Shown: positions 16,650 through 28,889, numbered from the stretch's first letter. The stretch: DNA of 52,761 bases from a virus (IMGVR_UViG_3300036782_000035:1-52761), one strand, 5' to 3'. Notes: generated from the sequence alone by a model not told the origin. Made by a program: numbers and translations.

Positions 16650-17026
16650 CGTGGCTGAAGCGCGCGGCGAAGTGGGCACCGGTTATCGCCCTGGCTCTGC
16701 TCGTCGTCTTCTGGCGGTACGGCGTTCAGCGCTGGCTCACGGTCCACACCGGCAGCAGCAACATGCCGGGGACGCCGCCGAACTACAACTTCTTCTCCGG
16801 CAGCGGCTCGATCCTGCTGCCCTGGATCGGCCAGGGGCTGATCGTCGGGCTGCTGTTCTGGTGGCACAACCAATGCGGCGTCCACGGCTGCTACTGGTAC
16901 GCCCAGCGGACCACGGCCGCAGGTGACCGGGCATGCCGCCGGCACCACCCGAACCAGCGGCCCACCGTCGAGGACATCCACGCGGCGCACCACGCCGCAC
17001 GGCAAACAGAGAGCGAGGATCGGTGA
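16646..17026 (+). CDS. Membrane protein with C-terminal Cys/His cluster
   Basis: GTGA overlap; two TM-like segments; YNFFSGSGS and CGVHGC...CRRHHP. Confidence 0.65.
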   Translation: MTWLKRAAKWAPVIALALLVVFWRYGVQRWLTVHTGSSNMPGTPPNYNFFSGSGSILLPWIGQGLIVGLLFWWHNQCGVHGCYWYAQRTTAAGDRACRRHHPNQRPTVEDIHAAHHAARQTESEDR

Positions 17027-17031
17027 TCTTG

Positions 17032-17544
17032 CTACGAAGCCACGTAGTCGGGGAAATTCAGGCGCGCATAGGCGCCGAACAGTTCTTTCGCCGCAGCGTC
17101 GTAGGCTTTCGCGGCGCCCAGTTCATCGGCGAAGGTTCCCAGGTGGTGCAGCTTTCCCTGGAATGTGATGCGGGCGCGCCACGCATTGCCCCTCGTCGTG
17201 CGGCCAACACCCTTGTACTGCGACGCGTGGCCGACTCCTGGACGCCGGTTGGCTCCGTTCTGGCTGGCGGTCGCGGGCCGCAGGTTCGACCGCTGATTGT
17301 TCAGCCCGTCGCCGTCCCAGTGGTCAACCCTCGGCCAGCCTGTGAGCAGCGTATGCATCAGCACCCTTGGCTTCCTGCCGGGACCGCCAGGGAGATAGCC
17401 GGTCGCATACGGGCCTTCCGTCCACCGCGAGAAGGTGAACGCCTTGGCCATCCAGTGATAGGGGATCACCAGGTCGTAGTCGGCGTCATCAACCAGCACA
17501 GGCCGACCGAGCGCATGCTTGCCGTGCAAAGGTACGGTCTTCAT
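17032..17544 (-). CDS. HNH endonuclease with AP2 DNA-binding domain
   Basis: MH...VDHWDGDGLNNQRSNLR (HNH); SQYKGV...WRARI...HLGTF...AAKAYD..A..LFG.YARLNF (AP2). Confidence 0.9.
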   Translation of the reverse strand: MKTVPLHGKHALGRPVLVDDADYDLVIPYHWMAKAFTFSRWTEGPYATGYLPGGPGRKPRVLMHTLLTGWPRVDHWDGDGLNNQRSNLRPATASQNGANRRPGVGHASQYKGVGRTTRGNAWRARITFQGKLHHLGTFADELGAAKAYDAAAKELFGAYARLNFPDYVAS

Positions 17545-17655
17545 GTCGGACCTTCCGAGAGGGTTAAAGGTTCGGCCGTGCCCCGGCCTGTTACCGCAGG
17601 TGCGGGGCTTTGTTGTACCAATTTTACGCATTCGCGTGCTAGGAAAGGGCGTTAG

Positions 17656-18051
17656 TTGAAATGGCGGCCGACAACATCATGGGCGGCGTGGTGGCAGGCG
17701 ATCGCGTTCCCGGTCATGCGGGATATCTGCTGCCTGGGAACGGGCCTGTACATGCTCATCGGGCAGGCGCAGTCAGCAGACCCGTCCAGCCTGCTCATCA
17801 CCGCCGGGCTGATCCTCGTCGCCCCGATCGCGGCCATCCACGGGTACCAGGTGCTTACCGGCCCGTCCTCCACGCCGCATACCGAGCTGCCGTCCTCGGA
17901 GCGTGCGCTGCCGCCGTCGTCCTCGCGGCCATCATCTGGGGAGGGTGGCTCGGGTGAACAAGCTCCGTTACGCCTTCGTCGCGCTGGTTGCCTTGTCGCT
18001 GGTCATAGGCGGCCTCTCGGTCCTGTTCTCGGTCAGCTACTACCACCGTGA
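17656..18051 (+). CDS. Membrane protein (holin-like candidate)
   Basis: TTG start after AGGAAAGG; two hydrophobic segments; C-terminal extent uncertain. Confidence 0.5.
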   Translation: MKWRPTTSWAAWWQAIAFPVMRDICCLGTGLYMLIGQAQSADPSSLLITAGLILVAPIAAIHGYQVLTGPSSTPHTELPSSERALPPSSSRPSSGEGGSGEQAPLRLRRAGCLVAGHRRPLGPVLGQLLPP

Positions 18052-18274
18052 GCAGGCATCGCAGCAGCACCAGGCGGCCCAGCAGCAGGCCGCGCAGAAG
18101 CAGCAGGGCGAGCTGCTCGAGCACCGGCTGTGCACCACCCTCAGCCGCCTCGCCGCGCTTAAGCCGCCGGCGGGGAACGCCGGGGCGAACCCGGCGAGGG
18201 GCTTCGACCAGCAGCAGCAGGCCGTGCTCGCCGAGCTCGGCCCGGACGTCGGCTGCCCCGCCAGTCACCACTAG
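17954..18274 (+). CDS. Single-TM membrane protein
   Basis: N-terminal TM, Gln-rich coil, two Cys. Confidence 0.6.
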   Translation: MNKLRYAFVALVALSLVIGGLSVLFSVSYYHREQASQQHQAAQQQAAQKQQGELLEHRLCTTLSRLAALKPPAGNAGANPARGFDQQQQAVLAELGPDVGCPASHH

Positions 18275-18283
18275 GAGGAACCC

Positions 18284-18436
18284 GTGAATGACAAGCAGTT
18301 CGCCGCCGTAGTGCTCTTCATCGTCGCCGCGATCCTGGCGGCGGTGGCCGCGTGCGTGCCGCCGGCGTACCAGCGGCTGCTCGGCCTGGCGGTGGCCGCC
18401 GCCGCACTGGGCGCGGCGGTTCAGGTATCGGCGTGA
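18284..18436 (+). CDS. Small 2-TM protein (holin candidate, 50 aa)
   Basis: AGGAGG SD; VNDKQFAAVVLFIVAAILAAVAAC...LLGLAVAAAALGAAV. Confidence 0.55.
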   Translation: MNDKQFAAVVLFIVAAILAAVAACVPPAYQRLLGLAVAAAALGAAVQVSA

Positions 18437-18579
18437 GGCCGCCCTGCGCCGTGTGCGGCTGCCCGCACGAGAGCCACAAGCACAATCACCGCGGGACGTA
18501 CTGCGGGCGTCCTGACGGCTGCGACCGCTACCAGCCCCGCCGGACCCGGCGGTGGCAGATCTGGAGGAGGACAGCATGA
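18433..18579 (+). CDS. Small Cys/His-rich protein
   Basis: Overlaps coupled at both ends; CAVCGCPHESH.H...YC...C. Confidence 0.5.
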   Translation: MRPPCAVCGCPHESHKHNHRGTYCGRPDGCDRYQPRRTRRWQIWRRTA

Positions 18580-19343
18580 CCATCGCGATGCCTGACAGCA
18601 TCGTCCCGGCGAACATGCCGCACGGTTACGACGCCTACCTTGCCTACGTTGACGGCGAGCGCAGCAGGGACGCGGACGCGGTGAAACAAAGTTTCGCCGG
18701 CGCGCACATCCTGACGCTGACCGTGCTCGGCGGCGGTGCCGTGGCCGACGGGTGCGACATGGAGCCGGGCGATCTCTCGCCTGCCAGCGCTGCGGACTGG
18801 CTTCACCAGCGGATCCAGGCGGGCCAGTGGCGGCCGGTGCTGTACGCCTCGCGGGACAACGTGCCGGCGGTCATCTCCGGGCTTGCCGCGCTCGGCGTGA
18901 ACCGGGCTCAGGTGCGCCTCCTGACCGCGCACTACGGCGAGGGCCAGCATGTCTGCTCGCCGACAGCGTGCGGGTGGATGCTCACCGCCGACGGGACGCA
19001 GTGGACCGACAGCTACCCGGGTGCCGGCGGATCCGCGATCGACATGTCAGCGCTGAACGACGGCTTCTTCGGAGCGCCCCCGTCGGCACCACCCGCACCC
19101 GCAAGCGACTGGACGGAGAACATCATGCAGCAGCTCCCCACCCTCACCACGGGCGCGACCGGCACCCACGTGCGCACCGCGCAGTTCCAGCTCAGGGAGA
19201 AGGGGCGGACCGAGGTGACGGTCGACGGCTCGTTCGGCCCGGTGACCGCTGCCGCTGTCAGCGCGGTGCAGGCTGACCGGCACCTGACGGAGGACGGGAC
19301 GGTCGGGCCGCAGACGTGGCCCGTGCTGCTCGGCGTCGAGTGA
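18576..19343 (+). CDS. Endolysin: GH25-like catalytic domain plus peptidoglycan-binding domain
   Basis: DxExG and P.LY.S motifs; C-terminal VDGSFGPVT...DGTVGPQTW (PG_binding_1). Confidence 0.8.
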   Translation: MTIAMPDSIVPANMPHGYDAYLAYVDGERSRDADAVKQSFAGAHILTLTVLGGGAVADGCDMEPGDLSPASAADWLHQRIQAGQWRPVLYASRDNVPAVISGLAALGVNRAQVRLLTAHYGEGQHVCSPTACGWMLTADGTQWTDSYPGAGGSAIDMSALNDGFFGAPPSAPPAPASDWTENIMQQLPTLTTGATGTHVRTAQFQLREKGRTEVTVDGSFGPVTAAAVSAVQADRHLTEDGTVGPQTWPVLLGVE

Positions 19344-19630
19344 CCCGTCTCGGGCCCCTGCTCGACTTCGCCCAGCTGGGGCAGGGGTGGGGGTTCATCC
19401 TCGGCAGCGTGCTCGGCGGGGCGGCGGGCACGCAGTTCGGCCGCTGGTCGGTGTACGTGTTCATGCGCAACCCGCTGGGGTGGCTCGTGCGGCAGTTCCG
19501 GTTGCTGCTCGCGGAGATCGGCCGGCTGTATGCCGCGAACGCGGACGTGATCGACCGGTCTAGCGCGTCCGCATCAGGACGGCCATCATCCGCAGGTCGG
19601 CGGCCGCCCGCTCACGCTCGATCTCGGTGA
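19340..19630 (+). CDS. Membrane protein
   Basis: GTGA overlap with endolysin; hydrophobic N-terminus. Confidence 0.45.
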   Translation: MTRLGPLLDFAQLGQGWGFILGSVLGGAAGTQFGRWSVYVFMRNPLGWLVRQFRLLLAEIGRLYAANADVIDRSSASASGRPSSAGRRPPAHARSR

Positions 19631-19721
19631 GGTCTTCCCATCGCAGCAGCCGGCCGACTAGCTCGGGTGGCAGCGCTGGCCGCGCCACGTCGAGCAGGGC
19701 AGCGCAGCATGACGGGTCCAA
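19560..19721 (-). CDS. Hypothetical protein (53 aa)
   Basis: TTG start with GGAGG SD, read by hand. Confidence 0.45.
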   Translation of the reverse strand: MDPSCCAALLDVARPALPPELVGRLLRWEDLTEIERERAAADLRMMAVLMRTR

Positions 19722-19759
19722 CGGTCCTCCGGGGGCGGGTGGCGAGTGCCGCGACCAGG

Positions 19760-19903
19760 TTATCGGCCAGCCAGCCGCCTCGCACGCCGCGCCTCCAGCA
19801 TGGCCAGCCTCTCACGCACCTCCGCAGGCGGCAGCGCGACCATCCGCGCGTTCAGCCACGTCACGCCCACCAGGTACGCCAGCTCGGCGTGCAGCCGCTT
19901 CAC
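19760..19903 (-). CDS. Hypothetical protein (47 aa)
   Basis: GTGA overlap with upstream gene, read by hand. Confidence 0.45.
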   Translation of the reverse strand: MKRLHAELAYLVGVTWLNARMVALPPAEVRERLAMLEARRARRLAGR

Positions 19904-20115
19904 AGCGCGTCCGGGTCTTCGCCGCGCTCACGGAGCGCTTCCATGACCTGGTCGTGCGCCCGGCGGCTGAGTTCCCGGGCACACTCCTCGTAGCCCAGCA
20001 CGGCCTGTGCCCACAGGACGGTCCCCACCGGGTGCTCCCGCCGCGCCGCCAGGTGCCGCGCCATTCTCCGCAGCACCTGCTCGTCCGGCAGCGCGGTCAG
20101 GTCATCCCCGGCCAA
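19900..20115 (-). CDS. Hypothetical protein
   Basis: ORF in the coupled leftward operon. Confidence 0.55.
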   Translation of the reverse strand: MAGDDLTALPDEQVLRRMARHLAARREHPVGTVLWAQAVLGYEECARELSRRAHDQVMEALRERGEDPDAL

Positions 20116-20368
20116 AGCGGGCCTCCAGGTAATCCATCAGGAAGCCGAGGTGATCCCGCGACACGGTCACCGGCGTCCCGTCGATGCGCGGGTCCTTGTC
20201 GGCCTCCAGCCACGTCGCGGTCGGCCGCGTCACCCCGGCCTGCCCCGGCATCAGGATGCTGACCTGCCGGTGGCGCGCCAGGAACGCCACCATCCGCGCC
20301 ACGTGGTCCGGGGCGTGGTCGACGCCCGGCACCACCGGCAGGTTGTCATTCGGCCACGGCCCCATCAC
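20102..20368 (-). CDS. Hypothetical protein
   Basis: ORF in the coupled leftward operon. Confidence 0.6.
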   Translation of the reverse strand: MMGPWPNDNLPVVPGVDHAPDHVARMVAFLARHRQVSILMPGQAGVTRPTATWLEADKDPRIDGTPVTVSRDHLGFLMDYLEARFGRG

Positions 20369-20583
20369 TGCCCGCCCAGGAGCGCATGGAGGATGCCGAC
20401 CATGGCCAGGTCTCCGACTGAGCGCTTTGCGTTCGACTGAAGCACGCCGTCCAGCACGTAGGCCAGCCGCTCAGCTTCCTGTCGGTGCTCTTCGCTGGTG
20501 AAGTAGTCCTCCCTGGGTGCGCTTCGCACCCGGCGCGGCCAGGCCGGCAGGCGGCCGAGTGTCTTACTGCCGATCAGCGCCAT
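20365..20583 (-). CDS. Hypothetical protein
   Basis: TGATG coupling; MALIGSKTLG... Confidence 0.55.
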   Translation of the reverse strand: MALIGSKTLGRLPAWPRRVRSAPREDYFTSEEHRQEAERLAYVLDGVLQSNAKRSVGDLAMVGILHALLGGQ

Positions 20584-20723
20584 CAGGAGTGCTCCCTGAT
20601 CCACTCGGCCAGGTCCTCGACGGGGTTGCCGTTCTGGTCGACCGGGCCGTCATAGCCGCTCTCGCGGAGCGCGGTGAACTTGGCCTGCGCCTCGGTGTCG
20701 GGGCCTTCTCCGAACCACTTCAT
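20583..20723 (-). CDS. Small protein (46 aa) of the transfer module
   Basis: Read by hand: MKWFGEGP...KFTALRESGYDGPVDQNG; ATGA overlap. Confidence 0.55.
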   Translation of the reverse strand: MKWFGEGPDTEAQAKFTALRESGYDGPVDQNGNPVEDLAEWIREHS

Positions 20724-20869
20724 GACCTGTCCTCTTCCTCGTCGTCGACGAAGATGACAGCGCCCGGGCCGTCCTGGTCGCTGGTGTCGACGCTGATGGG
20801 GCCGGTGAAGGTGCCGGAGAAGATGACTCCCCCGCCCTCGACGTGGTTGACGATGTTGTGGTTTGGCAT
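20720..20869 (-). CDS. Small acidic protein (49 aa)
   Basis: Read by hand: MPNHNIVNHVEGGGVIFSG...; GAAGGAA SD. Confidence 0.5.
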   Translation of the reverse strand: MPNHNIVNHVEGGGVIFSGTFTGPISVDTSDQDGPGAVIFVDDEEEDRS

Positions 20870-20870
20870 T

Positions 20871-21260
20871 TCATTCCTTCCTGGTGGTGCCGAGCACCCG
20901 GAGCGCCTCTAGCAGGCGGGGGTCGGCGGACTTAGCGCCTGCCTCGGGCAGGTGCAGGTGGTAGTGGTTCACGACGGCCTGCGGCTGAGCGGCCGGCACC
21001 TGCGGCCTGGGCTCGCGGATTACCTCCGCCTGCACCGTGAACGAGGGCCTGTGAGCGGCCATGCTGCGGCGGATCATGACCACCAGCCCGGCGATAATCG
21101 CGAGCAGGACGACGCCGACGCCGATCAGGATCCAGAAGATCGCGGCGATGATCGCGACCACGGCCATGACCACCGCGACGACGGCCGCGCCGCCGAGCAC
21201 TGACCCGATCCCGAAGCCGGTCACCTTGAAGGTGCCGGAGCCCTCCCATTGGCCGATCAC
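20871..21260 (-). CDS. Membrane protein (spread-protein-like)
   Basis: Long hydrophobic stretch; C-terminal VVNHYHLHL; GTGA overlap. Confidence 0.65.
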   Translation of the reverse strand: MIGQWEGSGTFKVTGFGIGSVLGGAAVVAVVMAVVAIIAAIFWILIGVGVVLLAIIAGLVVMIRRSMAAHRPSFTVQAEVIREPRPQVPAAQPQAVVNHYHLHLPEAGAKSADPRLLEALRVLGTTRKE

Positions 21261-21463
21261 CGCTCGTCCCGCGTCTTCCACGCGCGCTCCGCGATCAGCA
21301 CCCGGCCACGGTGGACGAGCCGGGCGCCGCGGCGGAACCTGCGGCCGGTCCCCTTGCACTTGGCGCACAGGCCGCGGGGGCACGGGCACGCACGCGTCGG
21401 CGAGACGAGCACGAACACCACCCACCCGATGGCCAGGACGAGGATTACCAGGACATGGCCCAT
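21257..21463 (-). CDS. Small membrane protein with CxxCxGxG zinc motif
   Basis: N-terminal TM then CPC...CAKCKGTGRR; GGAGG SD. Confidence 0.65.
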   Translation of the reverse strand: MGHVLVILVLAIGWVVFVLVSPTRACPCPRGLCAKCKGTGRRFRRGARLVHRGRVLIAERAWKTRDER

Positions 21464-21473
21464 GACGGCCTCC

Positions 21474-21890
21474 CTACTTGTGAGCCCGCGGGCAGTCGGC
21501 GATGCCGCGGTCGTGTCCCAGCTCCCAGCCGCGGGCGAAGCCTTCCTCGTCGCCGAGCTGGCGCCCGGCCTTGTACGCCACGCACAGCGACCGCTTGCAC
21601 GCGTCGTCGGAGCACTCGGTGTAGTCGTGCTTCGGCTTCGCCTTGCGCGCCCTCTCGCGCGCCTCCTTCTCCGCCTGCTTCTTCCGCCCGGTGAAGTCGG
21701 ACTTCGGCGCGCAGTGGTGGGTTAGCGCCCCGCCCGCGGTGTAGCGCTTCTTGCACTTCGGGCACTTCCCGAACGCCAGCCGCGGCTTGAGCGTCATCGG
21801 CCGCCGGCTGTTCGACACGCACACGTGCCGCAGGCCGGACGGCTTCCCGCACCGCCCGCACACCACGTTTAGTTGCGGGCGCCAGCCCAT
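21474..21890 (-). CDS. Cys-rich basic protein
   Basis: CGRC..HVC, CPKC..HHC and HDY..C...C...C motifs. Confidence 0.65.
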   Translation of the reverse strand: MGWRPQLNVVCGRCGKPSGLRHVCVSNSRRPMTLKPRLAFGKCPKCKKRYTAGGALTHHCAPKSDFTGRKKQAEKEARERARKAKPKHDYTECSDDACKRSLCVAYKAGRQLGDEEGFARGWELGHDRGIADCPRAHK

Positions 21891-21978
21891 CAGCTCGCTC
21901 TCCCATGGCCCGTGAAACTGGCCGCGCGCCCGCTGCGACCGCGAACAGCGGAACATCGCAGGTCAGAGAGCGTGAGGC

Positions 21979-22043
21979 GTGTCGCGCAGTGTCGCGGGGA
22001 TCGGTGTTTCCGCTGGTCATCGCGTGTCGCGCTAGCGCGACAC
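21979..22043. repeat. clt-like locus: GTGTCGCG 8-bp repeats
   Basis: Copies at 21979, 21989 and 22024, inverted copy at 22036 (20-bp palindrome 22024-22043), directly 3' of the TraB-like gene. Confidence 0.6.
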
Positions 22044-22058
22044 ATTTCAGGGTCTCCA

Positions 22059-24110
22059 CTACAGCCCTCCCGCCCGCAGGTGCTCCTGAACGGCGGAGCG
22101 CTCGCATCCCGAGCGGGGCTTGCTGCCAGGCTCACGGACCGACTTGACGGGGATCGCGAGGGCGCGGAGCTGGCTCAGCACCGCGTCGCGGGTGATGCCC
22201 TCGTAAGCCTCGCCGAACGTGCCGGAGAGCCGGTCGGCGATCGTCTCGCCCCACAGCTTCTCGTCGTCGCCGAACACCTCGAGGACGTCACGCGCGAACG
22301 ACCGGGCCTCCACGGCGAAGTCCTCGCCCGCGGCGTAGCCGGTGACCCGGTGCGCCCGCTCGCGCATGAGCCGGGCGCGGGCGAAGATCAGCCGGGACAG
22401 CGGCCCGTCGATGTACTGGGCGCGCATGATGCGCGGGCGCAGGCCCTCGCCGCCGAAGTACAGGACGCCCTTGGCGTCGAACCCGAACATGGTTGCCCGG
22501 ATACCGGCCTTGTACTGGGACGTCCCGAGCACCATGTCGTTCTCAACCTGGCCGGTGACGTACAGGCACATCCGCAGGACCGCGTTCGCGCGGATGCCCG
22601 GCGGGATCGACTTCGCGTCCGGCCGCTGCGTGGCCAGGATGATCAGCATCCCCAGCGCCGGGCCGCGCTTGGCCAGGTCGGTGCAGATCAGCTCGAACTC
22701 CTCGCCGTAGGCGGGGTGCTCGAATGCGACCTGGCACTCGTCGACCGCGATCACGATCGGCTGCAGGCCAAGGCTCCGGTCGTTCGCCAGCTCGTCGGTG
22801 ATCTTGTTCTCGGGGCAGCGCAGCGGGTCGGCTTCGGCGATGTCGCGGATGATCTTGGTCCGGCGGCGCATCTCCCTGCGCAGTGCGCGGAAGTCTGCGA
22901 TCATCGCCGCCATGTCCTCGGGCTCGTCGCCGACCCCGTAGGCGTGCGCCACGGGCCGCGCCGGGGCGAGGTCGCCGGTTCCCTTCAGGTCGTAGGCGTG
23001 GATCTCCGAGCGCACGTCAAGGGCGGCGATCAGCAGCAGCAGCCGCAGCAGGAACGTCTTCCCCATCCGGGGAACCGCCCCGATGATGATCGAGACGAAC
23101 ATCAGCGTGACCGTGACGGCCTTGCCGCGCGGGTCGTAGCCGAACAGCGTCGGCTTGAACATGTTGACCGTGCCGCGCCTGGCCAGCGGCCACGCGGGCT
23201 GGTCGGCCTTCGTCATGTCCTCGTCGGCGACGTACAGGTCAAGCGCTCCGGGGTGCCGCTTGTGGTCCGTCTCGGGCCACACGCAGCCGAGCGGGCGACG
23301 CAGGCCCGACGCGGCTTCCTCGCGCTTCTCGCTGACCGCCCCGGCCGTCACGCCGATCGGCAGGTCGCCCCGCCACAGCCAGCCAGCGCCGTCCCGCATG
23401 GGCCCGTCAAGGGTCACGATCGCGTTGCCCGGGTTCTCACGGATCGCCTTGTTCATCTCGGCGATGCCGAGCACGCCGAGCATGTTGACGATCAGCTCAG
23501 TGGTCAGCCGCTCGACGGCGACCGGGACAACGGAGCTGGTGACGATCGGCTTGTCCTCCGGCCGGCCAATCCACGCCAGCACCGGCCCGGCGACCAGGCC
23601 AACCGGGATCCACAGCAGCGCAGAGACGGAGGTCAGCAGCGCAGCGCCGACGGCCAGGGCGACGACCTCGCCGAGCAGGATCAGGCCGCGGACGAGGCGG
23701 ACCTTCCGCGCCTCCTTGTGCAGCGCCAGCCACTTAGCCGTGTCGCCGTCGGCGATGGCGCGGTGGCGCAGCAGCGTCTGCTCGCTGACCCACCACCACC
23801 CGAGCTGGGTGAACACGATACGGGCCACGCCGACGCCAGCCCACATGACCGTGAGCGCGACACGCTGCGGCAGGCGGACGCCGTGATAAAGCGAGTGATG
23901 CCTGGCCCGCTTGTACTGCCAGCCTGCGGCCTTGCGGCGGCCCTCGCGGGTGCGCAGGTGCTCAGGGATGACCGGCTTCCACTCGGATGGCTCGCCGCGT
24001 TCGGGCTTCGCCGGGGGCGCAGGCGCTGCGGTGCCGGGGAACGGTACGACCTCGCCGGTTACGGCGTCGTCTTCCTCGTCGCCGGGCTCGTCGTCGTACG
24101 GCCGCGTCAC
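22059..24110 (-). CDS. FtsK/SpoIIIE-family conjugative DNA translocase (TraB-like)
   Basis: N-terminal TM segments; Walker A GAVPRMGKT, DLKG, Walker B IAVDECQ, LATQRP; C-terminal winged-helix-sized domain. Confidence 0.88.
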   Translation of the reverse strand: MTRPYDDEPGDEEDDAVTGEVVPFPGTAAPAPPAKPERGEPSEWKPVIPEHLRTREGRRKAAGWQYKRARHHSLYHGVRLPQRVALTVMWAGVGVARIVFTQLGWWWVSEQTLLRHRAIADGDTAKWLALHKEARKVRLVRGLILLGEVVALAVGAALLTSVSALLWIPVGLVAGPVLAWIGRPEDKPIVTSSVVPVAVERLTTELIVNMLGVLGIAEMNKAIRENPGNAIVTLDGPMRDGAGWLWRGDLPIGVTAGAVSEKREEAASGLRRPLGCVWPETDHKRHPGALDLYVADEDMTKADQPAWPLARRGTVNMFKPTLFGYDPRGKAVTVTLMFVSIIIGAVPRMGKTFLLRLLLLIAALDVRSEIHAYDLKGTGDLAPARPVAHAYGVGDEPEDMAAMIADFRALRREMRRRTKIIRDIAEADPLRCPENKITDELANDRSLGLQPIVIAVDECQVAFEHPAYGEEFELICTDLAKRGPALGMLIILATQRPDAKSIPPGIRANAVLRMCLYVTGQVENDMVLGTSQYKAGIRATMFGFDAKGVLYFGGEGLRPRIMRAQYIDGPLSRLIFARARLMRERAHRVTGYAAGEDFAVEARSFARDVLEVFGDDEKLWGETIADRLSGTFGEAYEGITRDAVLSQLRALAIPVKSVREPGSKPRSGCERSAVQEHLRAGGL

Positions 24111-24295
24111 CATGCGAACCGCCTCCTGCACGGCTGCAGGCCCCACCCGCACTCCGCCACGATGGTGGCGATGGCGAGGGTGAGCGCCGCGACCGTCACC
24201 GCGACCACCGCGACGGCGAGCAGCGTCAGCAGGTGCACGCCGAGGATGGCGGCGAGCGCCAGGGCAACGGCGGCGAGGATCTTGGGCGCGGTCAT
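24107..24295 (-). CDS. Small membrane protein
   Basis: Almost entirely hydrophobic; coupled at both ends. Confidence 0.6.
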   Translation of the reverse strand: MTAPKILAAVALALAAILGVHLLTLLAVAVVAVTVAALTLAIATIVAECGWGLQPCRRRFAW

Positions 24296-24951
24296 GCCGG
24301 CACCTCTTCGCGCTCGTCCGCGGTCTCTTCGGGGGCCTCGCTCAGCGCGGCCTTGACCAGCTGGCCGATGGTGTCGTGGTGCATGCCGAACGCCCGGCCG
24401 AGATCCCGGTAAGACGGCCTCGCACCGAGGCAGTCACGCAGGTGCAGGTACGCGTCGACAACCCGGTCCTCGGTGGCTTCCGCCAGCCCGTGACCGCAGC
24501 CGACAGTGACGACCCTGGCGGCCGTGGCGCCGGGGGAGGCGACGCCACGGCCGCGCCTTACGAGCCCCGCGAGGGACTCAAGCGCGAGGGTGAACGCCAG
24601 CGCTGGCCAGCCGGAGACCAGCCGGCCGCCCATGCCGTGGTGCGACCCGGCCGCAACGTTCATTGCCAAGGTCACGACGATGCCGACGCCGAGCGACACC
24701 ATCGTCAGGACCGGCCTGCCTGCCCCGCCGCGGGACGCTGAGATCAGGTCGGCGGACGCTCCGAGGATGACGAGGTCCGCCAGTGCGGGCACGAGGTACG
24801 CGACCGGCGCGGTCGCTCCTGCGGCCTCGACGACGGTCAGCGCGTGGAAGTACGAGGCGATGCCTGCGATGAGGGAGACGCCCGCCAAGGCCAGCCAGCC
24901 GACGACACGAGGGGCGCTAGCGGTGCGGGACGGGGTATCTGTAGAGTCCAC
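24292..24951 (-). CDS. DUF2637 (SpdA-like) membrane protein with C-terminal HTH-like segment
   Basis: IASYFH...P..D...TLAMNV...VSGWPALA pattern, four TM segments; PSYRDLGRAFG tail. Confidence 0.75.
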   Translation of the reverse strand: MDSTDTPSRTASAPRVVGWLALAGVSLIAGIASYFHALTVVEAAGATAPVAYLVPALADLVILGASADLISASRGGAGRPVLTMVSLGVGIVVTLAMNVAAGSHHGMGGRLVSGWPALAFTLALESLAGLVRRGRGVASPGATAARVVTVGCGHGLAEATEDRVVDAYLHLRDCLGARPSYRDLGRAFGMHHDTIGQLVKAALSEAPEETADEREEVPA

Positions 24952-25030
24952 GTGGGCCTCTTCCTGGTTCGTTCAGGAGGGGTCAAGGGCCATCTGGTGG
25001 ACTGCAATCCGCCAGGTGGCCCGCCATCGT

Positions 25031-25095
25031 TTGATGACGTTGTCAAGTGCCACCATACGCCGCAGATCGCTGCGGTGCATAGCGGTGCGCCGCTA
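25031..25095. promoter_or_regulatory. Divergent promoter/operator region of the transfer module
   Basis: Tandem palindromes CCGCAG-N4-CTGCGG (25060-75) and TAGCGG-N4-CCGCTA (25080-95); leftward TATGGT -10 candidate (25052-57). Confidence 0.45.
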
Positions 25096-25138
25096 CGGGT
25101 ATATTCGCGCTGCTCAGAGGGGTGGCAGAGTGCTCCGC

Positions 25139-25468
25139 ATGGCAGCAATCGGGTACGAGTGGCAGCGCGTCGCGGCCGCCGTCGAGGCGCAGATCGCCGA
25201 CGGCACCCTGCCACCTGGCGCCATGCTCCGCGGTGAGCGCGCCATGGCCGAGGAACACGGGGTCGCCATCAGCACCGTCCGCCGCGCCCTTAAGGATCTC
25301 CGCGACCGCGGGCTCGTCGTCACCCTGCCAGCTAAGGGCACCTTCGTAGCCGGCAGCGGCTTACCGGGATGCATCAGGATGCGTCCTGTCCCGTCCCGAT
25401 CACGCGTGATGCACCCGCGTAGCGTCCAGCCGTGGACGACGACGAGCCCCCGCGCCGCGTGCGCCTGA
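25139..25468 (+). CDS. GntR-family winged-HTH regulator (Kor-like) 1
   Basis: I.DG.L.PG..L..ER.MA..HGV...TVRRAL..L...GLV......GTFV. Confidence 0.85.
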   Translation: MAAIGYEWQRVAAAVEAQIADGTLPPGAMLRGERAMAEEHGVAISTVRRALKDLRDRGLVVTLPAKGTFVAGSGLPGCIRMRPVPSRSRVMHPRSVQPWTTTSPRAACA

Positions 25469-25707
25469 GCAACACCGAGTACGCCTACGTCCAGGTCGCC
25501 GACGACCTTGAGCGCCGCGTCCGCGCCGGAGAGTTCCCCTACGAGGGCAAGCTGCCTGGCCGCCAGGACCTCGCCGCGGAGTACGGCGTCGGCGAGATGA
25601 CCGTCCGCCACGCGCTGCGGGTCCTCGCCGATAGGGGCATGGTGCGGCTGATGCCGAGCCGTGGGACGATCGTCACGTGGGCAGGGCACACAGAGGGCAC
25701 ACCGTAA
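25432..25707 (+). CDS. GntR-family winged-HTH regulator 2
   Basis: YVQVADDL..R...GE......LP....LA.EYGV...TVRHAL..L...G; TAGCGT 6 nt before GTG suggests a leaderless transcript. Confidence 0.85.
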   Translation: MDDDEPPRRVRLSNTEYAYVQVADDLERRVRAGEFPYEGKLPGRQDLAAEYGVGEMTVRHALRVLADRGMVRLMPSRGTIVTWAGHTEGTP

Positions 25708-25898
25708 CGTCTACGAAACCCCCGGAAACTACACGAAGATTTACGAAGGTAACAGGTAGAAGGCCGTGAATCGAACACGCGAGCCTGTGACCTGCAGCGC
25801 GGAAAAGGCCCGCTACAGTCATGCCGAGACTGTAACACCCGCCCGCCTACCAGCATTTACCGGGCACTTTCCCCCGCAGAGGGCACGTCCGGGGCACA
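25683..25898. other. attP: core TACAGTC-ATGCCGA-GACTGTA (25814-25834) flanked by GGGCAC arm-type repeats
   Basis: 7-bp inverted repeats around a 7-bp overlap at the integrase 3' end; GGGCAC repeats on both sides. Confidence 0.65.
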
Positions 25899-27233
25899 CG
25901 GGGCCGGCCGGAGGAACGCGTCGACCGCCGCGCGGGCGTCGCCGTCGTCACCTCCCGGCATGAAGTGCGCGTAGGTGTCGACCACCGTCTTAACCGAGTC
26001 GCCGATGAACTCCGCCACCCGCACGACGTCCGTCCCGGCGCGCAGCTGCGTGCTGACGAAGGTGTGGCGCAGAGCGTGGCAGCCGTCCTCCCGCTCCCGC
26101 CCGTCCTCCGGCGTGATCCCCGCCCGCCGCCGCGCCCGCCGCCACGTGTTGTCCAGCGAGTGGCGCCCCGCGGGCAGGCCCCGCGCCGTCGTCACGATCA
26201 GCCGCGCCGTCACCGGCTTCCCGTGGCGGCCGCCGCGCCCGGCGTCGGCCGGGTCATGCCACGGCAGCGTCACCTCGACGGCGGGGAACTCGTCCAGGTG
26301 CCGCTGGAGCCGCAGCTTCAGCTCCGGCGACAGCGGCGCGCTGTGCGGCTTGCGGTTCTTCAGCGGCGCGAAGGAGAACTCCCCGCCGGCGTACCGCAGC
26401 TGCCGCACCACCCTCACCCGCGGGTCGTCCCGCGTGAGCCAGTCGACGTCGCCGGTGCCGAGCGCGAGCATCTCGCCCTGGCGCAGGCCCGCCCCGGTGC
26501 CGATGTCGACGAGCACGCGCCACCGCGCGGGCAGCTCGGCGCGCATCGCGTCCGCCTGCGCTGCCGTCCAGGCGCGCGCCCTGCTCGGGCCGATCTGCGG
26601 CCAGGTGACGGACTGCGCCTGGGTCGGGTCGCGGTGCACGACGTTGTCGTCGATCGCCACCCGGAAGCAGTAGGACACGTCCCCCATGACGTGGCGGGCG
26701 CGGATCGGCGACAGCGGGATGGCCGCGGCCCACGCGGCGACGAGGCTCGGCTGCGCGGCGAGCAGCGCCATCGGGTGCTGGCCGATCGAGGGGGCGTCCA
26801 TCGGCGTCCTGCCGCTGCCGGGCTCGCCCTCGTAGACGTGGAGCCGCAGCCGCCCTTCGAGGTCGGCGGCGGTCTGGGGGTTGGGGATCCGCCTGCCCTG
26901 GCGGAGCTTCTCGGCGAACTGCCGCAGGGTGACCTTCCCGGCGTTGGGGTCGGTGTAGGTGCGGGTGACGATCTTGCCCTGCGTGAGCGCGTCGAACGCG
27001 GAGGCGTGCCTCTCCGGGTCGGGTTCCTCGCCGCGGGCGGGGTCGCGGAGCGCGAAGTTGCGCTTGCGGCGCTTGCGGGCGGGGGCCGCGGGGTCTTCCC
27101 ACTGGACCTGCCAGCGCCTGGCCTGGCCGTGGACGGCACTCGGGTAGAGGCGGTTGCGGCCCTTGCCGCACGCGCACGGCTGCAGCTGCTCGCCCTCGCG
27201 GGGCGTCACGTGCCAGCGGTCGTAGACGGCCAT
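25857..27233 (-). CDS. int: Tyrosine integrase
   Basis: GLRQGE (R), K, HALRH, terminal TYAH; N-terminal H G..RWQV.W arm-binding region. Confidence 0.92.
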   Translation of the reverse strand: MAVYDRWHVTPREGEQLQPCACGKGRNRLYPSAVHGQARRWQVQWEDPAAPARKRRKRNFALRDPARGEEPDPERHASAFDALTQGKIVTRTYTDPNAGKVTLRQFAEKLRQGRRIPNPQTAADLEGRLRLHVYEGEPGSGRTPMDAPSIGQHPMALLAAQPSLVAAWAAAIPLSPIRARHVMGDVSYCFRVAIDDNVVHRDPTQAQSVTWPQIGPSRARAWTAAQADAMRAELPARWRVLVDIGTGAGLRQGEMLALGTGDVDWLTRDDPRVRVVRQLRYAGGEFSFAPLKNRKPHSAPLSPELKLRLQRHLDEFPAVEVTLPWHDPADAGRGGRHGKPVTARLIVTTARGLPAGRHSLDNTWRRARRRAGITPEDGREREDGCHALRHTFVSTQLRAGTDVVRVAEFIGDSVKTVVDTYAHFMPGGDDGDARAAVDAFLRPAPCAPDVPSAGESAR

Positions 27234-27496
27234 CAGCGGTACTTCGTGGTAACGCGGACCTTCCGGCGGAACATCGGCCAGACCAGCAGCCAGGCGCCGC
27301 AGGTGAGGATGGTCATCGTCCAGTGGAAGGCGTTGCTGCCCGTCTGGACGGTGACGGTCTTGCGCTCGACGGGCGGCGGCTGGGGCGGGTAGTAGTCCTG
27401 TGGCCGCGCGCCCCACTGCGGCTGCTGCTGCGGGTAAGGCGCGACGGGTCCGTTCTCGTACTGCCTGCCGCGCTGTCTCGGGTCGTACTGGGTCAT
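27233..27496 (-). CDS. Small Pro/Gln-rich membrane protein co-transcribed with int
   Basis: GGAAGGAG SD; HW..TILTCGAWLLVW motif; TGATG coupling to int. Confidence 0.7.
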   Translation of the reverse strand: MTQYDPRQRGRQYENGPVAPYPQQQPQWGARPQDYYPPQPPPVERKTVTVQTGSNAFHWTMTILTCGAWLLVWPMFRRKVRVTTKYR

Positions 27497-27520
27497 GCTG
27501 CGCTCCTTCCTTCGCGCTGT

Positions 27521-27546
27521 GCTGGATGCATCCTGATGCATCCAGC
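27521..27546. repeat. Near-palindromic GGATGCATC motif; second copy at 25367-25386
   Basis: GCTGGATGCATCCTGATGCATCCAGC; reverse complement matches 25367-25386 at 19/20. Confidence 0.7.
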
Positions 27547-27671
27547 GTCCTGTGGAATCCCACGGGAAACACTTGCAAACATGCTGTAACTACGAGTAGT
27601 TTATCGAACTCGTAAGAAACTTATTAAATTTCTGTGAAGAAACGTTAATCACCCAGGGGTGGGGGAGCAGC

Positions 27672-27971
27672 GTGCAGGGGATCAAAGTGCGACGGTTCAG
27701 GCCGGTCACGCTTGTATCGACAATTGTCACAATTGCGGCGGCGTGCCTTTGGGACGTGGCCGCGATGTCAACGTGGGCGGAGGTAGGGCACCCTGCCATT
27801 GCCATCTCAGTGGGCGGCGCGACGTCGGCCACCGTCGTGGCGGCCCTGTGCTGGAAGGCGCGGTGGGACGAGAGGCGCGACCGGGACAAGGCGCTGCTCA
27901 TCAGGACGCTGACCGACGCCATTCCTGGCCGGCCTCTGGCGAAGACGCTCCCGTTTCGCCGCGCTCTTTAG
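27672..27971 (+). CDS. Membrane protein convergent on the repressor
   Basis: GGGGAG SD, two TM segments, preceded by an AT-rich tract. Confidence 0.5.
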   Translation: MQGIKVRRFRPVTLVSTIVTIAAACLWDVAAMSTWAEVGHPAIAISVGGATSATVVAALCWKARWDERRDRDKALLIRTLTDAIPGRPLAKTLPFRRAL

Positions 27972-28278
27972 CGAGCGTCCTTTCAATAGCCGCAATGACG
28001 GCCTGGCGCTCATCTTCCGTCAGGCCGTCCGTGGCCTCTATTTCCCTTAGCAAGCTCTTAGGAATTGCGGGCTCAGGTTCAGGCTCGGCGTCCAGGGGGA
28101 CGCCGAGCACTTCTTCGAGCGCGCCGAGGCGGTTGCGCGGCTTACGCCGGTCGTTCTCCCAGTCGCCGACGGCCCTTTTGGACGCGCCGACGAGCCTTGC
28201 TAGGTCTTCCTGGCTGAGCTGCGCCCGCTCTCGCGCGCGGCGAATGCGCGCGCCTAGCGATGGCGGGTTCCGGGCCAT
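27901..28278 (-). CDS. Immunity repressor (XRE/Cro-CI HTH)
   Basis: IRRARERAQLSQEDLARLVGASKRAVGDWEND; divergent from the early operon. Confidence 0.88.
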   Translation of the reverse strand: MARNPPSLGARIRRARERAQLSQEDLARLVGASKRAVGDWENDRRKPRNRLGALEEVLGVPLDAEPEPEPAIPKSLLREIEATDGLTEDERQAVIAAIERTLAKERGETGASSPEAGQEWRRSAS

Positions 28279-28284
28279 GGCCAC

Positions 28285-28313
28285 ATCATGACCGGCAAGT
28301 CGCGGCAAGTCAA
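28285..28313 (-). promoter_or_regulatory. Repressor promoter (leaderless)
   Basis: TTGACT-17-CATGAT, 6 nt before ATG 28278. Confidence 0.6.
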
Positions 28314-28368
28314 CGCAACTGTACGCTACATGTCTGGTTTACTCTTGCCACAACTCGCCTCTAGTTGC

Positions 28369-28425
28369 TTGACAGTGCCCCTCAACGTGCCCTAAGTTGC
28401 CAGTCACTAGCAAGAACTGGCAACT
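28369..28425 (+). promoter_or_regulatory. Early lytic promoter and operator
   Basis: TTGACA-18-TAAGTT; perfect inverted repeat AGTTGCCAGT-N11-ACTGGCAACT (28395-28425); further GCAAGT/GCAACT half-sites at 28295-28320. Confidence 0.65.
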
Positions 28426-28440
28426 ACAGGAGACGCCAAA

Positions 28441-28632
28441 TTGCTGACTTCAGCAGAGGCGCGGGAACGGATCGGCATAGGCCGGGCCAAGCTCGAAGCC
28501 CTGATCCGCGAGGGCGAGATCGAGGCAATCAAGACCGGCACCGCGCCGAACTCGCACTACCGCATCCCCGAGGAAGCGGTTGACGCCTACATCGAGCGCC
28601 ACAAGGTCGTGCCCGCACAGGTGGGGTCCTGA
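28441..28632 (+). CDS. Excisionase/Cro-like HTH_17 protein
   Basis: LTSAEA.E.IGIGR..L..LIREGEI.A......YRI.EEAV..YI. Confidence 0.8.
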   Translation: MLTSAEARERIGIGRAKLEALIREGEIEAIKTGTAPNSHYRIPEEAVDAYIERHKVVPAQVGS

Positions 28633-28856: not shown

Positions 28857-28859
28857 CCA

Positions 28860-28889
28860 GGCAGCCCCCGCATGCACGCAGGGGCTGCC
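28860..28889 (+). terminator. Hairpin after the xis-like genes
   Basis: GGCAGCCCC...GGGGCTGCC stem; no U-tract. Confidence 0.35.

What the first reader, a model, noticed from the sequence alone, without database searches (positions are those of the whole stretch)
19560..25707. Tailed temperate phage carrying a TraB-type conjugative transfer module fused to its attP/integrase
Seen: a coupled leftward operon of DUF2637/SpdA-like protein, small membrane protein, intact FtsK-family translocase (GAVPRMGKT, VDECQ, ATQRP) and further small membrane/zinc proteins. It has divergent GntR regulators and sits between the endolysin and attP. No separate Rep, integrase or element ends are visible. Known: Tra + Spd + GntR Kor is the double-stranded DNA transfer unit of Streptomyces plasmids and AICEs; plasmid-phage hybrids such as pZL12 are a precedent. 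Inference: this integrative prophage may have a second, capsid-free route, in which the excised circle is pumped between hyphae.
Basis: partly seen in the sequence, partly recalled or inferred. Interest (0 to 1): 0.92.

Follow-up and report, generated by a model that had tools for sequence, protein, structure and literature searches.

The report
Temperate actinophage with TraB transfer module
A complete integrating tailed phage of a filamentous soil actinomycete carries the plasmid-type DNA pump, its likely docking repeats, membrane partners and repressors as a conserved part of its genome, so it may also move between hyphae without virus particles, which is untested.

Summary
The window is a whole, circularly closed 52.8-kb siphophage genome. 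Between the endolysin and the only integrase lies a leftward operon: DUF2637-type membrane protein, 62-aa membrane protein, 697-aa FtsK-family pump, then zinc-ribbon and small membrane proteins. Two tandem short GntR genes are divergent from it.

The pump groups with pSVH1/pSG5 TraB. It lies apart from chromosomal FtsK, EccC and the FtsK-like proteins of lytic phages. Its model is an FtsK motor with a winged-helix tail. Directly 3' of it are four copies of CGCGACAC. This is where pSVH1 has its clt, and the repeats co-vary within loci across relatives.

The module is not a chimera or a nested element. It sits at the same place in related phages (G001, G005, L122, six metagenome contigs) and in Pseudonocardia "plasmid" pPaSha2, which is a phage genome.

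Capsid-free transfer remains an inference. attP was not located. The plasmid-phage pZL12 is a published precedent. This scan has noted similar hybrids on other DNA (75 notes, at least 67 genomes). I class it as a new variant of a known kind.

The parts
18552..19343 (+). Endolysin with a C-terminal peptidoglycan-binding domain. It is the last late gene and the left boundary of the module.
   Evidence: Pfam PG_binding_1 1.6e-11. Several PHROG endolysin families match.
19560..20869 (-). Distal part of the leftward operon. It holds six small ORFs (19560-19721, 19760-19903, 19900-20115, 20102-20368, 20583-20723, 20720-20869) with no family assignment.
   Evidence: High-GC3 ORFs. Three of the six (19560, 20102, 20583) have 51-64% homologues at the same place in phage G001. 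No Pfam or PHROG hits.
20871..21425 (-). Membrane protein (Spd-like by position only). Its start is uncertain because it overlaps the next ORF.
   Evidence: Hydrophobic segment at residues 68-125. Weak Phage_holin_3_6 match at 1.5e-4, below the cut-off.
21257..21463 (-). 68-aa protein with one TM segment and a CxC...CxxC motif.
   Evidence: GC3 of 0.93 and the translation.
21474..21956 (-). Cys-rich zinc-ribbon protein conserved directly downstream of the translocase. The likely true start is MGWRPQLN, near 21890.
   Evidence: Translation. Homologues at 38-68% identity sit in the same position in L003, L004, L011, L065, L120-L122 and L139.
21979..22043 (.). clt-like array of four copies of CGCGACAC. 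A perfect 20-bp palindrome with a CTAG centre is followed by two direct copies. A CTGACCTGCG motif shared with pSVH1 and pSG5 follows.
   Evidence: 4 of the window's 7 exact copies lie within 65 bp, against 9.46 expected genome-wide by chance. pSVH1 positive control. The sites co-vary within loci.
22059..24152 (-). TraB-like FtsK-family dsDNA translocase of 697 aa. It has N-terminal helices with a hydrophobic hairpin (150-196), an alpha/beta motor and a C-terminal winged-helix-like domain (619-694).
   Evidence: Motifs. PHROG 1358 at 5.5e-22. pSVH1 TraB at 7e-26. Tree. AF2 pLDDT of 91.2. Foldseek hit to FtsK motor at 6e-14.
24107..24295 (-). 62-aa membrane protein that overlaps both neighbouring genes.
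   Evidence: Hydrophobic over residues 1-53. 66% homologue in G001.
24292..24951 (-). DUF2637-type polytopic membrane protein with a C-terminal HTH-like tail. It is the first gene of the operon.
   Evidence: DUF2637 E=0.018 for this protein. Close homologues pass the cut-off. 71-84% homologues occur in related phages.
24952..25138 (.). Divergent control region between the tra operon and the GntR genes.
   Evidence: 187-bp non-coding gap. It holds no copy of the clt 8-mer. No sigma-70 consensus was found.
25139..25468 (+). GntR-type winged-helix regulator 1 (109 aa, no effector domain).
   Evidence: Pfam GntR 3.9e-14.
25432..25707 (+). GntR-type winged-helix regulator 2 (91 aa, no effector domain).
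   Evidence: Pfam GntR 2.5e-16. 46-50% homologues occur in G001, L141 and L142.
25857..27578 (-). Tyrosine integrase, the only recombinase in the genome. The likely start is MAVYDRW at 27233. It forms the right boundary.
   Evidence: Pfam Phage_integrase 3.9e-9 and PHROG 1 at 1.3e-21. It is the single PF00589 match in the record.
27901..28308 (-). XRE-type repressor candidate (immunity region).
   Evidence: Pfam HTH_31 4.3e-11 and HTH_3 7.4e-11.

Best explanation
The window is the complete circular genome of a temperate siphovirus of a mycelial actinomycete. The best TraB hits are Streptosporangiaceae MAGs, so the host assignment is an inference.

Between its lysis genes and its integrase and immunity region it carries a pSVH1-type double-stranded-DNA transfer module. 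The module is a native, conserved part of the phage lineage. Two short GntR (TraR/Kor-like) repressors are divergent from an operon with this order: DUF2637 membrane protein, 62-aa membrane protein, TraB-like hexameric pump, an array of four 8-bp repeats (candidate clt), then zinc-ribbon and small membrane proteins.

Inferred mechanism:
1. The phage genome is a free circle after injection and before integration, or after excision.
2. The operon is derepressed.
3. TraB sits in the membrane at septa or hyphal contacts.
4. Its C-terminal winged helix binds the CGCGACAC repeats in cis.
5. The motor pumps the phage circle into the neighbouring compartment or hypha.
6. There Int integrates the circle, or lytic growth starts.

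This would give the phage a capsid-free route inside and between mycelia.

Shown here: gene content, homology, fold, repeat architecture and its concerted evolution, conservation of position, and circular closure. Inferred: DNA binding, regulation and any transfer.
For: **Phage identity and closure**
- TerL, portal, protease, two MCPs, tape measure and endolysin are present. RecT and an exonuclease are also present.
- A 377-aa frame crosses the end/start junction. It aligns as a single HSP to one gene of G001.

**TraB identity**
- Walker A, Walker B and TQRP motifs are present.
- tblastn finds pSVH1 at 1e-14. The pairwise E-value is 7e-26.
- In a 42-row tree, a branch at 98/94* joins the window, its homologues, G001, G005, pPaSha2 and pSVH1/pSG5 TraB. 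Chromosomal FtsK, EccC and 3 lytic-phage FtsK-like proteins fall outside.
- The AF2 model has pLDDT 91.2. The best PDB folds are FtsK motors at 6e-14, followed by the conjugation coupling protein TcpA.
- The C-terminus folds as H-E-H-H-H-E-E-H.

**clt**
- Four copies of CGCGACAC lie within 65 bp 3' of the gene.
- The same scan recovers GACCCGGA x5 at the known pSVH1 clt.
- 52 of 81 homologue loci have an exact 8-mer at least 3 times in the 170 bp after the stop codon.
- In 10 aligned loci, the four sites are 0.82 identical within a locus and 0.67-0.69 between loci. None of 5000 permutations reached this value.
- The motif is absent from the GntR/tra promoter gap.

**Native to the phage**
- The same order and place occur in G001 (DTR, 100% complete, MCP 87% identical) and in G005.
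- They also occur in L122, in 6 of 6 sufficiently long metagenome loci and in pPaSha2.
- Composition is even across the block and no flanking repeats bound it.
Against: - No experiment, RNA data or raw reads bear on function.
- Pfam PF01580 does not hit the protein even at E<=10.
- NCBIfam plasmid_TraB scores 13 bits against a cut-off of 800, so the protein lies outside the curated TraB equivalog.
- No SpdB2 homologue is present.
- Both GntR proteins lack the effector domain of TraR/KorA.
- G001 has nearly the same repeat (CGCGGCAC) beside a pump that is only 29% identical. The repeats could therefore be read by another conserved protein.
- The palindrome could also serve as a terminator or an operator.
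- attP, and hence the form of the DNA at the time of transfer, is unknown.
- The tree contains long branches.
Confidence: 0.6

Rival explanations
1. The module works only inside one mycelium and serves lysogenisation or lytic spread. TraB and its partners move phage DNA across cross-walls, so that all compartments and chromosome copies become lysogenised or infected. There is no mating-type transfer to other mycelia.
For: In pSVH1, TraB and the Spd proteins direct intramycelial spreading. [quoted passage not shown] The module sits beside the integrase and immunity genes.
Against: In pSVH1, traB is the one gene needed for intermycelial transfer (same paper, abstract). Nothing in the sequence separates the two uses. 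No SpdB2 homologue was found.
Confidence: 0.2
2. The block is cargo captured from an AICE. It gives the phage no transfer ability. It is either a neutral remnant, or it acts for the host, for example by mobilising chromosomal DNA or excluding other elements.
For: The closest TraB homologues (57-78% identity) lie in MAG chromosomes that have no phrog_9 terminase anywhere (0 of 5 genomes). NUDIX, GntR and integrase genes lie nearby, as in AICEs. The window has no Rep. There are weak PADLOC matches to FtsK-like ATPases of defence systems: mad8 at 1.1e-6 and SspH at 1.4e-4.
Against: All ORFs are intact and their motifs are invariant. The module keeps its place in phages whose MCPs are only 53-87% identical. 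The cis repeats are kept and co-vary. Composition matches the rest of the genome. The PADLOC hits cover only the generic P-loop region.
Confidence: 0.12
3. The repeats are an operator or terminator rather than a clt. The FtsK-like protein has a phage-internal role, such as segregating phage DNA into spores or helping replication or packaging.
For: The first two copies form a perfect palindrome of the kind dimeric regulators bind. The window and G001 share almost the same 8-mer although their pumps are 29% identical. FtsK-like genes in lytic Streptomyces phages have been linked loosely to replication (PMC11536984, passage).
Against: The two further direct copies change together with the palindrome arms, which a terminator does not explain. 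The array lies exactly where pSVH1 has its clt and is followed by the same CTGACCTGCG motif. The protein is not in the clade of lytic-phage FtsK-like proteins.
Confidence: 0.07
4. Assembly chimera: a phage contig wrongly joined to an AICE.
For: The record comes from a soil metagenome. The only full holder, run X1, may be the source sample.
Against: The same order occurs in independent records: G001, G005, L122, L139, L141-L145 and the isolate-derived pPaSha2. Contigs of X1 tile 17000-28961 with no differences at even depth. One 3226-bp piece bridges 23081-26306 and one piece spans 18190-19631.
Confidence: 0.01

Closest known systems
tra-spd region of Streptomyces venezuelae plasmid pSVH1 (TraR, SpdB3-Spd79-SpdB2, Orf108, TraB, clt, Spd198...), and pSG5
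   Same: A GntR regulator is divergent from an operon of small membrane proteins ending in an FtsK-like pump. An array of 8-bp repeats lies directly 3' of the pump, followed by CTGACCTGCG and more small genes. The pumps are homologous at 7e-26 and share a clade.
   Different: Identity is only 27% over the motor. Pfam PF01580 hits pSVH1 TraB at 5.4e-12 but not the window's protein. A DUF2637 protein stands in place of SpdB2. There are two short GntR proteins without effector domains. The repeat sequence differs. The carrier is a 52.8-kb tailed phage, not a 12.6-kb rolling-circle plasmid.
[quoted passage not shown]
   Same: It has a tyrosine integrase, a GntR, a DUF2637 protein and an FtsK-like Tra that is 46% identical. 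The repeats lie after the tra gene.
   Different: AICEs are defined by Int + Rep + Tra (PMC3218068, passages). The window has no Prim-Pol or RepAM. Instead it carries a full virion, lysis and RecET set.
Streptomyces plasmid-phage pZL12 / phiZL12 (Zhong et al. 2010, J Bacteriol 192:3747)
   Same: It is a genome that makes tailed virions and also has a conjugal transfer locus. [quoted passage not shown] It encodes phage particle proteins (PMC4487206, passages).
   Different: pZL12 is a 90-kb autonomous theta-type plasmid prophage with ParAB. The window is an integrase-bearing 52.8-kb phage with no plasmid maintenance genes found. The pZL12 paper itself is not held, and its Tra was not compared with the window's protein.
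SpdB2 homologues on phages phiC31 and VWB
   Same: They are plasmid spread-type genes carried on temperate actinophages. [quoted passage not shown]
   Different: Those phages are reported to carry only an Spd homologue, not TraB plus clt plus a regulator. The window has no SpdB2 homologue.
FtsK-like DNA translocases of lytic Streptomyces phages (Gilgamesh gp10, Wofford gp108) and Bacillus phage 1 ORF40
   Same: They are FtsK-family P-loop motors encoded by phages.
   Different: They fall with chromosomal FtsK, outside the TraB-like clade. Against the phage collection, G005's pump matched them only weakly (E>=1e-7, at most 43% coverage), while the window's own pump and G001's found no match. 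They have no DUF2637, GntR or repeat context.
pPaSha2 (CP052773.1), a 41.9-kb circular 'plasmid' of Pseudonocardia alni Shahu
   Same: It has the same architecture: holin, then leftward FtsK (40% identical) and DUF2637, then integrase, HTH regulator, Bet, terminase, portal, protease and MCP.
   Different: It belongs to a different phage lineage (TerL 28% identical) and a different host order. No clear repeat array lies after its pump. It is not described as a phage in the strain's paper (0 mentions of pPaSha).

Membership tests
TraB-type dsDNA conjugative translocase with clt (Streptomyces plasmids/AICEs) | FtsK/SpoIIIE-type motor with Walker A and Walker B | tested here: met
   GAVPRMGKT, VDECQ and ATQRP are present. 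A profile search hits FtsK in the PDB at 2.5e-5. Foldseek hits FtsK motors at 6e-14 with TM 0.63-0.66.
TraB-type dsDNA conjugative translocase with clt (Streptomyces plasmids/AICEs) | Closer to characterised TraB than to chromosomal FtsK or EccC | tested here: met
   pSVH1 TraB matches at 7e-26. A clade at 98/94* contains pSVH1/pSG5 and excludes FtsK, EccC and lytic-phage proteins. Long branches were noted. Two rows (L107, L111) were left out.
TraB-type dsDNA conjugative translocase with clt (Streptomyces plasmids/AICEs) | N-terminal membrane association | tested here: met
   There is a hydrophobic stretch at 150-196 (Kyte-Doolittle 2.19) within long helices at 69-196. This is a prediction only.
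TraB-type dsDNA conjugative translocase with clt (Streptomyces plasmids/AICEs) | C-terminal winged-helix domain that reads the clt repeats | tested here: inconclusive
   The model has H-E-H-H-H-E-E-H at 619-694 with pLDDT mostly above 90. No fold search of the domain alone was possible and no binding test was done.
TraB-type dsDNA conjugative translocase with clt (Streptomyces plasmids/AICEs) | cis-acting clt: repeated 8-mers next to traB | tested here: met
   Four copies of CGCGACAC lie within 65 bp. The pSVH1 control recovers its known repeats. 52 of 81 loci have such arrays. The sites evolve in concert. Function as a clt was not tested.
TraB-type dsDNA conjugative translocase with clt (Streptomyces plasmids/AICEs) | Divergent GntR-type Kor/TraR regulator | tested here: met
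   Two GntR winged-helix genes are present. Both lack the C-terminal effector domain found in TraR (759-bp gene in pSVH1).
TraB-type dsDNA conjugative translocase with clt (Streptomyces plasmids/AICEs) | SpdB2-type spread protein | tested here: not met
   P0002 against pSVH1 SpdB2 gives only a 22-residue match at E=0.027. A DUF2637 protein occupies that position instead.
NCBIfam NF041214 plasmid_TraB / Pfam PF01580 | Score above the curated cut-off | tested here: not met
   NF041214 scores 13 bits against a cut-off of 800. PF01580 gives no hit at E<=10.
AICE | Int + Rep + Tra within one small element bounded by att repeats | tested here: not met
   Int and Tra are present. No Prim-Pol was found. 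DUF3631 was not found, but its control was silent. No flanking repeats bound the block. The element is a 52.8-kb phage.
Tailed temperate phage (Caudoviricetes) | Terminase, portal, protease, HK97-type capsid, tape measure and lysin, plus integrase and repressor | tested here: met
   PHROG matches are TerL 4e-71, portal 6e-62, protease 8e-56, MCP 6e-44 and TMP 5e-36. Integrase and endolysin are found. An XRE repressor is present.
DUF2637 (PF10935) | Score above the gathering cut-off | tested here: inconclusive
   P0002 scores 15.4 bits against a cut-off of 22.8. Its 77%-identical homologue P0124 scores 27.1 bits.

The most novel reading that the evidence does not exclude
Integrating tailed phages of mycelial actinomycetes may routinely carry a 'movement module' of TraB plus clt. 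This would let the naked phage genome cross hyphal walls, much as plant viruses use movement proteins. The pump-plus-repeat unit behaves as a swappable specificity cassette. The adjacent DUF2637 gene stays 71-84% identical while the pump is only 28-33% identical among related phages. The reverse is seen in L122, where the pump is 73% identical and no DUF2637 match was found. This pattern suggests selection for distinct, non-cross-reacting transfer specificities between co-resident phages and AICEs.
Probability: 0.35. Interest if true: 0.85.

Novelty: new variant of a known kind. Interest (0 to 1): 0.6.

Why it matters
If the module works, virion production is not this phage's only way to spread. 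Host range, receptor-based resistance and particle counts would then understate how such phages move through soil mycelia. Lysogeny could sweep a multinucleate colony from a single infection.

The finding also blurs the line between AICEs and prophages. The pump clade found here is invisible to Pfam PF01580, the model used to define AICE Tra proteins (PMC3218068). Surveys of conjugative elements and of prophages may therefore both miss or mis-trim these elements.

A tractable test bed exists. Pseudonocardia alni Shahu carries pPaSha2, and published conjugation and deletion tools are available for the strain (PMC8928166).

Tried and rejected
- **Nucleotide searches.** Megablast of the module and of the head region against 50,697 phage records found nothing.
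- **attP and attB.** ARAGORN found no tRNA in the window. Rfam found nothing. Searching 25690-25870 and 27200-28000 in 5 Streptosporangiaceae-type genomes gave only chance-level short matches. attP therefore remains unplaced.
- **Promoter and terminator scan of 19200-26000.** It returned 0 promoters and 1 terminator-like site inside traB, which is no more than the shuffled controls give.
- **Counting repeats with one mismatch allowed.** This did not separate the clt regions from control windows in this GC-rich DNA. I rely on the exact-match counts instead.
- **First AF2 model.** The 18-row alignment gave a poor model (pLDDT 50), which I discarded in favour of the 115-row model.
- **Head-gene census.** Only 3 of 87 loci have terminase, portal or capsid genes within 10 kb of the pump. 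In the window's layout these genes lie more than 10 kb away, so this is a lower bound only.
- **Records cut short.** G002, G003 and G004 end before the module region and say nothing about its presence.
- **Defence reading.** Only generic ATPase matches were found.
- **Expression.** No RNA holder was listed for the stretch. Only contigs, not raw reads, could be laid.
- **Literature.** Searches found no paper describing TraB in an integrating tailed phage. The library lacks most subscription journals. The pZL12 paper is not held. Supplementary files were not consulted.

Full report
**What the window is**

The held genome is the window itself: one 52,761-base virus record. IMG/VR classes it as linear, and CheckV estimates it at 100% complete. 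It encodes the following.

- Large terminase (41452-42927, minus strand).
- Portal, prohead protease and two HK97-type capsid genes.
- A 1035-aa tape measure and a 1715-aa tail protein.
- An endolysin with a peptidoglycan-binding domain.
- A RecT-type annealing protein with an exonuclease.
- A tyrosine integrase and an XRE repressor.

When the two ends are joined, a 377-aa frame runs across the joint. That frame aligns as one HSP (64% identity, 384 columns) to a single 390-aa frame of the related phage G001. The record is therefore a closed circle cut inside a gene, with phage genes on both sides of the region in question. GC content is 65-76% throughout and shows no step at the module.

**The observation**

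Gene calls based on third-position GC give a tightly packed leftward gene set from 24951 down to 19560.

- A 219-aa polytopic membrane protein (P0002).
- A 62-aa membrane protein.
- A 697-aa FtsK-family protein (P0001) with IIIGAVPRMGKTF, IAVDECQ and LATQRPD.
- After a gap, a Cys-rich zinc-ribbon protein, a 68-aa TM+CxxC protein, a further membrane protein and six small ORFs.

On the other strand are two tandem short GntR winged-helix genes, at 25139-25468 and 25432-25707.

Six-frame family searches of the whole record found one Phage_integrase match, no resolvase-type recombinase and no Prim-Pol. DUF3631 was also absent, but that control rang nowhere. No exact direct repeats bound the block. 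I could not place attP.

**Is the pump TraB-like?**

Curated models are unhelpful here.

- Pfam PF01580 does not hit P0001 even at E<=10.
- NCBIfam plasmid_TraB scores 13 bits against a cut-off of 800.
- PHROG 1358 (FtsK/SpoIIIE-like) scores 5.5e-22.

Direct comparison is clearer.

- tblastn against 72,556 plasmids found 43 records. These include pSVH1 (1e-14) and pSG5 (4e-13), whose TraB proteins are the experimentally studied ones (PMC4447253).
- The pairwise E-value against pSVH1 TraB is 7e-26 over 352 residues.
- A maximum-likelihood tree was built from 42 rows and 315 motor-domain columns. Two badly extracted rows were left out.
- A branch with support 98/94 joins the window's protein, its homologues, the pumps of phages G001 and G005, pPaSha2 and other plasmids with pSVH1/pSG5 TraB.
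- On the other side are a Streptomyces chromosomal FtsK, an EccC-like protein, and the FtsK-like proteins of phages Gilgamesh, Wofford and Bacillus phage 1. Several rows have long branches, so finer placements are unsafe.

With a 115-row alignment of representatives the AlphaFold2 model reaches pLDDT 91.2. Its best solved-structure matches are FtsK motor domains (6e-14, TM 0.63-0.66), then the conjugation coupling protein TcpA, then EssC/EccC. The N-terminus has long helices with a hydrophobic hairpin at 150-196. The C-terminus (619-694) has the helix-strand pattern of a winged helix.

**A clt-like array**

A scan for clustered 8-mers picked out the gap just 3' of the pump gene. GTGTCGCG-CTAG-CGCGACAC is a perfect 20-bp palindrome. 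It is followed 27 bp later by CGCGACAC-TG-CGCGACAC.

The window holds 7 exact copies, against 9.46 expected by chance genome-wide. Four of them lie within these 65 bp. None lies in the GntR/tra promoter gap.

As a positive control, the same script recovers five copies of GACCCGGA in the 230 bp after pSVH1 traB, which is the published clt position. Only 2 of 104 control windows in pSVH1 reached 4 or 5 copies. In pSVH1, pSG5 and the window the repeats are followed by the same CTGACCTGCG motif.

Among 81 homologue loci, 52 have an exact 8-mer at least three times in the 170 bp after the stop codon, and 29 have two copies.

I aligned ten loci of the window's subclade. The four sites are in register but the 8-mer differs between loci: CGCGACAC, CGGAACAC, CGCGGCAC, CTCAACAC and others. 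Sites within a locus are 0.82 identical. Sites in different loci are 0.67-0.69 identical. None of 5000 label permutations reached the observed value.

A terminator hairpin would explain the palindrome but not the matching direct copies. Concerted change of all copies is what a sequence-specific binding protein predicts. Which protein binds is not shown. G001 has almost the same 8-mer beside a pump only 29% identical. I found it independently and added the comparisons.

**Native part or insertion?**

Using the capsid protein I found related IMG/VR phages.

- **G001** (53,085 bp, direct terminal repeats, 100% complete; MCP 87%, portal 67%, TerL 61% identical) has the same order at the same place. 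It carries small leftward genes (51-64% identical), an FtsK-like pump (29%), the 62-aa protein (66%), the DUF2637 protein (71%), a GntR (46%), an integrase (46%) and a Xis-like HTH (42%).
- **G005** (a fragment, MCP 53% identical) has the DUF2637 protein (77%) and a pump (29%) next to the endolysin and tail genes.
- **G002, G003 and G004** end before this region and are uninformative.
- **L122** (pump 73% identical) shows HTH genes, GntR, pump, zinc-ribbon, then endolysin and tail genes.
- **Metagenome loci.** Eight loci were found with P0002. Two are under 2 kb and were not examined. All six others place the DUF2637 gene next to window-type endolysin and tail genes (L139, L143, L145) or integrase, GntR or HTH genes (L141, L142, L144).
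- **pPaSha2**, a 41.9-kb circular 'plasmid' of the isolate Pseudonocardia alni Shahu, is annotated with terminase, portal, HK97 protease, capsid, holin, Bet and integrase. Its leftward DUF2637 and FtsK (40% identical) genes lie between the holin and the integrase. The strain's paper does not mention it.
- **Three Streptomyces genome loci** (L041, L057, L062) have a pump homologue 2-4 kb upstream of terminase, portal, protease and capsid genes.

Contigs of run X1 tile 17000-28961 without differences at even depth. They leave two gaps of 73 and 80 bp. Single pieces span 18190-19631 and 23081-26306. X1 may be the source sample, so this is weak support. Taken with the independent records, a chimera is excluded for practical purposes.

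**Relation to AICEs**

The closest pump homologues (57-81% identical) come from Streptosporangiaceae-type MAGs and soil metagenomes. Five such genomes contain no phrog_9 terminase at all (0 of 5). Their loci carry NUDIX, GntR and integrase genes, as AICEs do.

The closest plasmid is an excised AICE-like circle with integrase, Prim-Pol, FtsK, DUF2637, GntR and NUDIX.

The pump family is large. A full scan of 1.84 billion cluster representatives found 2404 with E<=0.001 and 525 with E<=1e-30.

Phages and AICEs thus share one pool of pump genes. Within the phage group, the DUF2637 gene and the pump are reshuffled independently.

**What is already known**

- AICE reviews treat integration and replication modules as phage-derived and conjugation modules as plasmid-derived (PMC2440964, passages).
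- Thoma et al. [quoted passage not shown] The paper itself is not held.
- FtsK-like genes are listed for some lytic Streptomyces phages without a transfer role.
- Among 50,697 phage records, none has a full-length relative of the window's, G001's or G005's pump. The best matches have E=1e-7 and cover the motor only.
- My searches found no description of a TraB-clt module in an integrating tailed phage.
- This scan has noted such hybrids on other DNA: 75 notes in at least 67 genomes hold the search words.

**Verdict**

The structure is real, is native to the phage, and matches the TraB-clt system in every feature I could test except a SpdB2 homologue and the curated family cut-offs. That it moves the phage genome without capsids is a reasonable but untested inference. 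I rate the whole reading at about 0.6. Because of pZL12 and the recurrence, it is a new variant of a known kind rather than a new kind.

Noticed in passing
window 22059-24152; locus L026 genome (G006): Pfam PF01580 does not detect this TraB-like clade. It gives no hit on P0001 at E<=10. A whole-genome PF01580 search of the Streptomyces genome holding homologue L026 returned FtsK and EccC-like genes but not that homologue. Surveys that define AICE Tra proteins by PF01580 would miss it.
   Followed up: partly
L119 (CP052773.1, 1-41938): pPaSha2 is deposited as a plasmid of Pseudonocardia alni Shahu. Its own annotation is that of a complete tailed-phage genome: terminase, portal, HK97 protease, capsid, holin, Bet and integrase.
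   Followed up: partly
L041 9908-20267; L057 4529-15503; L062 9950-21720: In three Streptomyces genomes a TraB-like gene lies 2-4 kb upstream of terminase, portal, protease and capsid genes. This is a second layout of phage-plus-TraB elements.
   Followed up: partly
G001 (L099 2987-5125), G005 (L100 749-2869), L139, L142, L143 versus window 22059-24951: The DUF2637 gene is 71-84% identical among related phages while the adjoining pump is only 28-33% identical. In G001 the first 17 residues of the pump are still nearly identical. This looks like cassette-style replacement of the pump body.
   Followed up: partly
window 47496-48998 and 49346-50482: Two HK97-type major capsid genes lie in tandem, both matching phrog_10. 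Both are kept in G001, G002 and G005.
   Followed up: no
window 41452-43324: The large terminase and the gene upstream of it lie on the minus strand, divergent from the portal gene. The same inversion is seen in G001 and G002.
   Followed up: no
window 17032-17631 (-): An HNH endonuclease with an AP2 domain lies antisense within the late region.
   Followed up: no
window 37401-38417 (+): A 338-aa protein with a fibronectin type III domain lies in the early region.
   Followed up: no
G003 (L134 1-1483): The IMG/VR 'provirus' record of a related phage ends 733 bp beyond its endolysin. Automatic provirus trimming may cut off plasmid-like modules of this kind.
   Followed up: no
window 27233-27541 (-): A 102-aa proline/glutamine-rich protein with a C-terminal hydrophobic segment ends where the integrase's likely start codon lies, which suggests translational coupling.
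   Followed up: no
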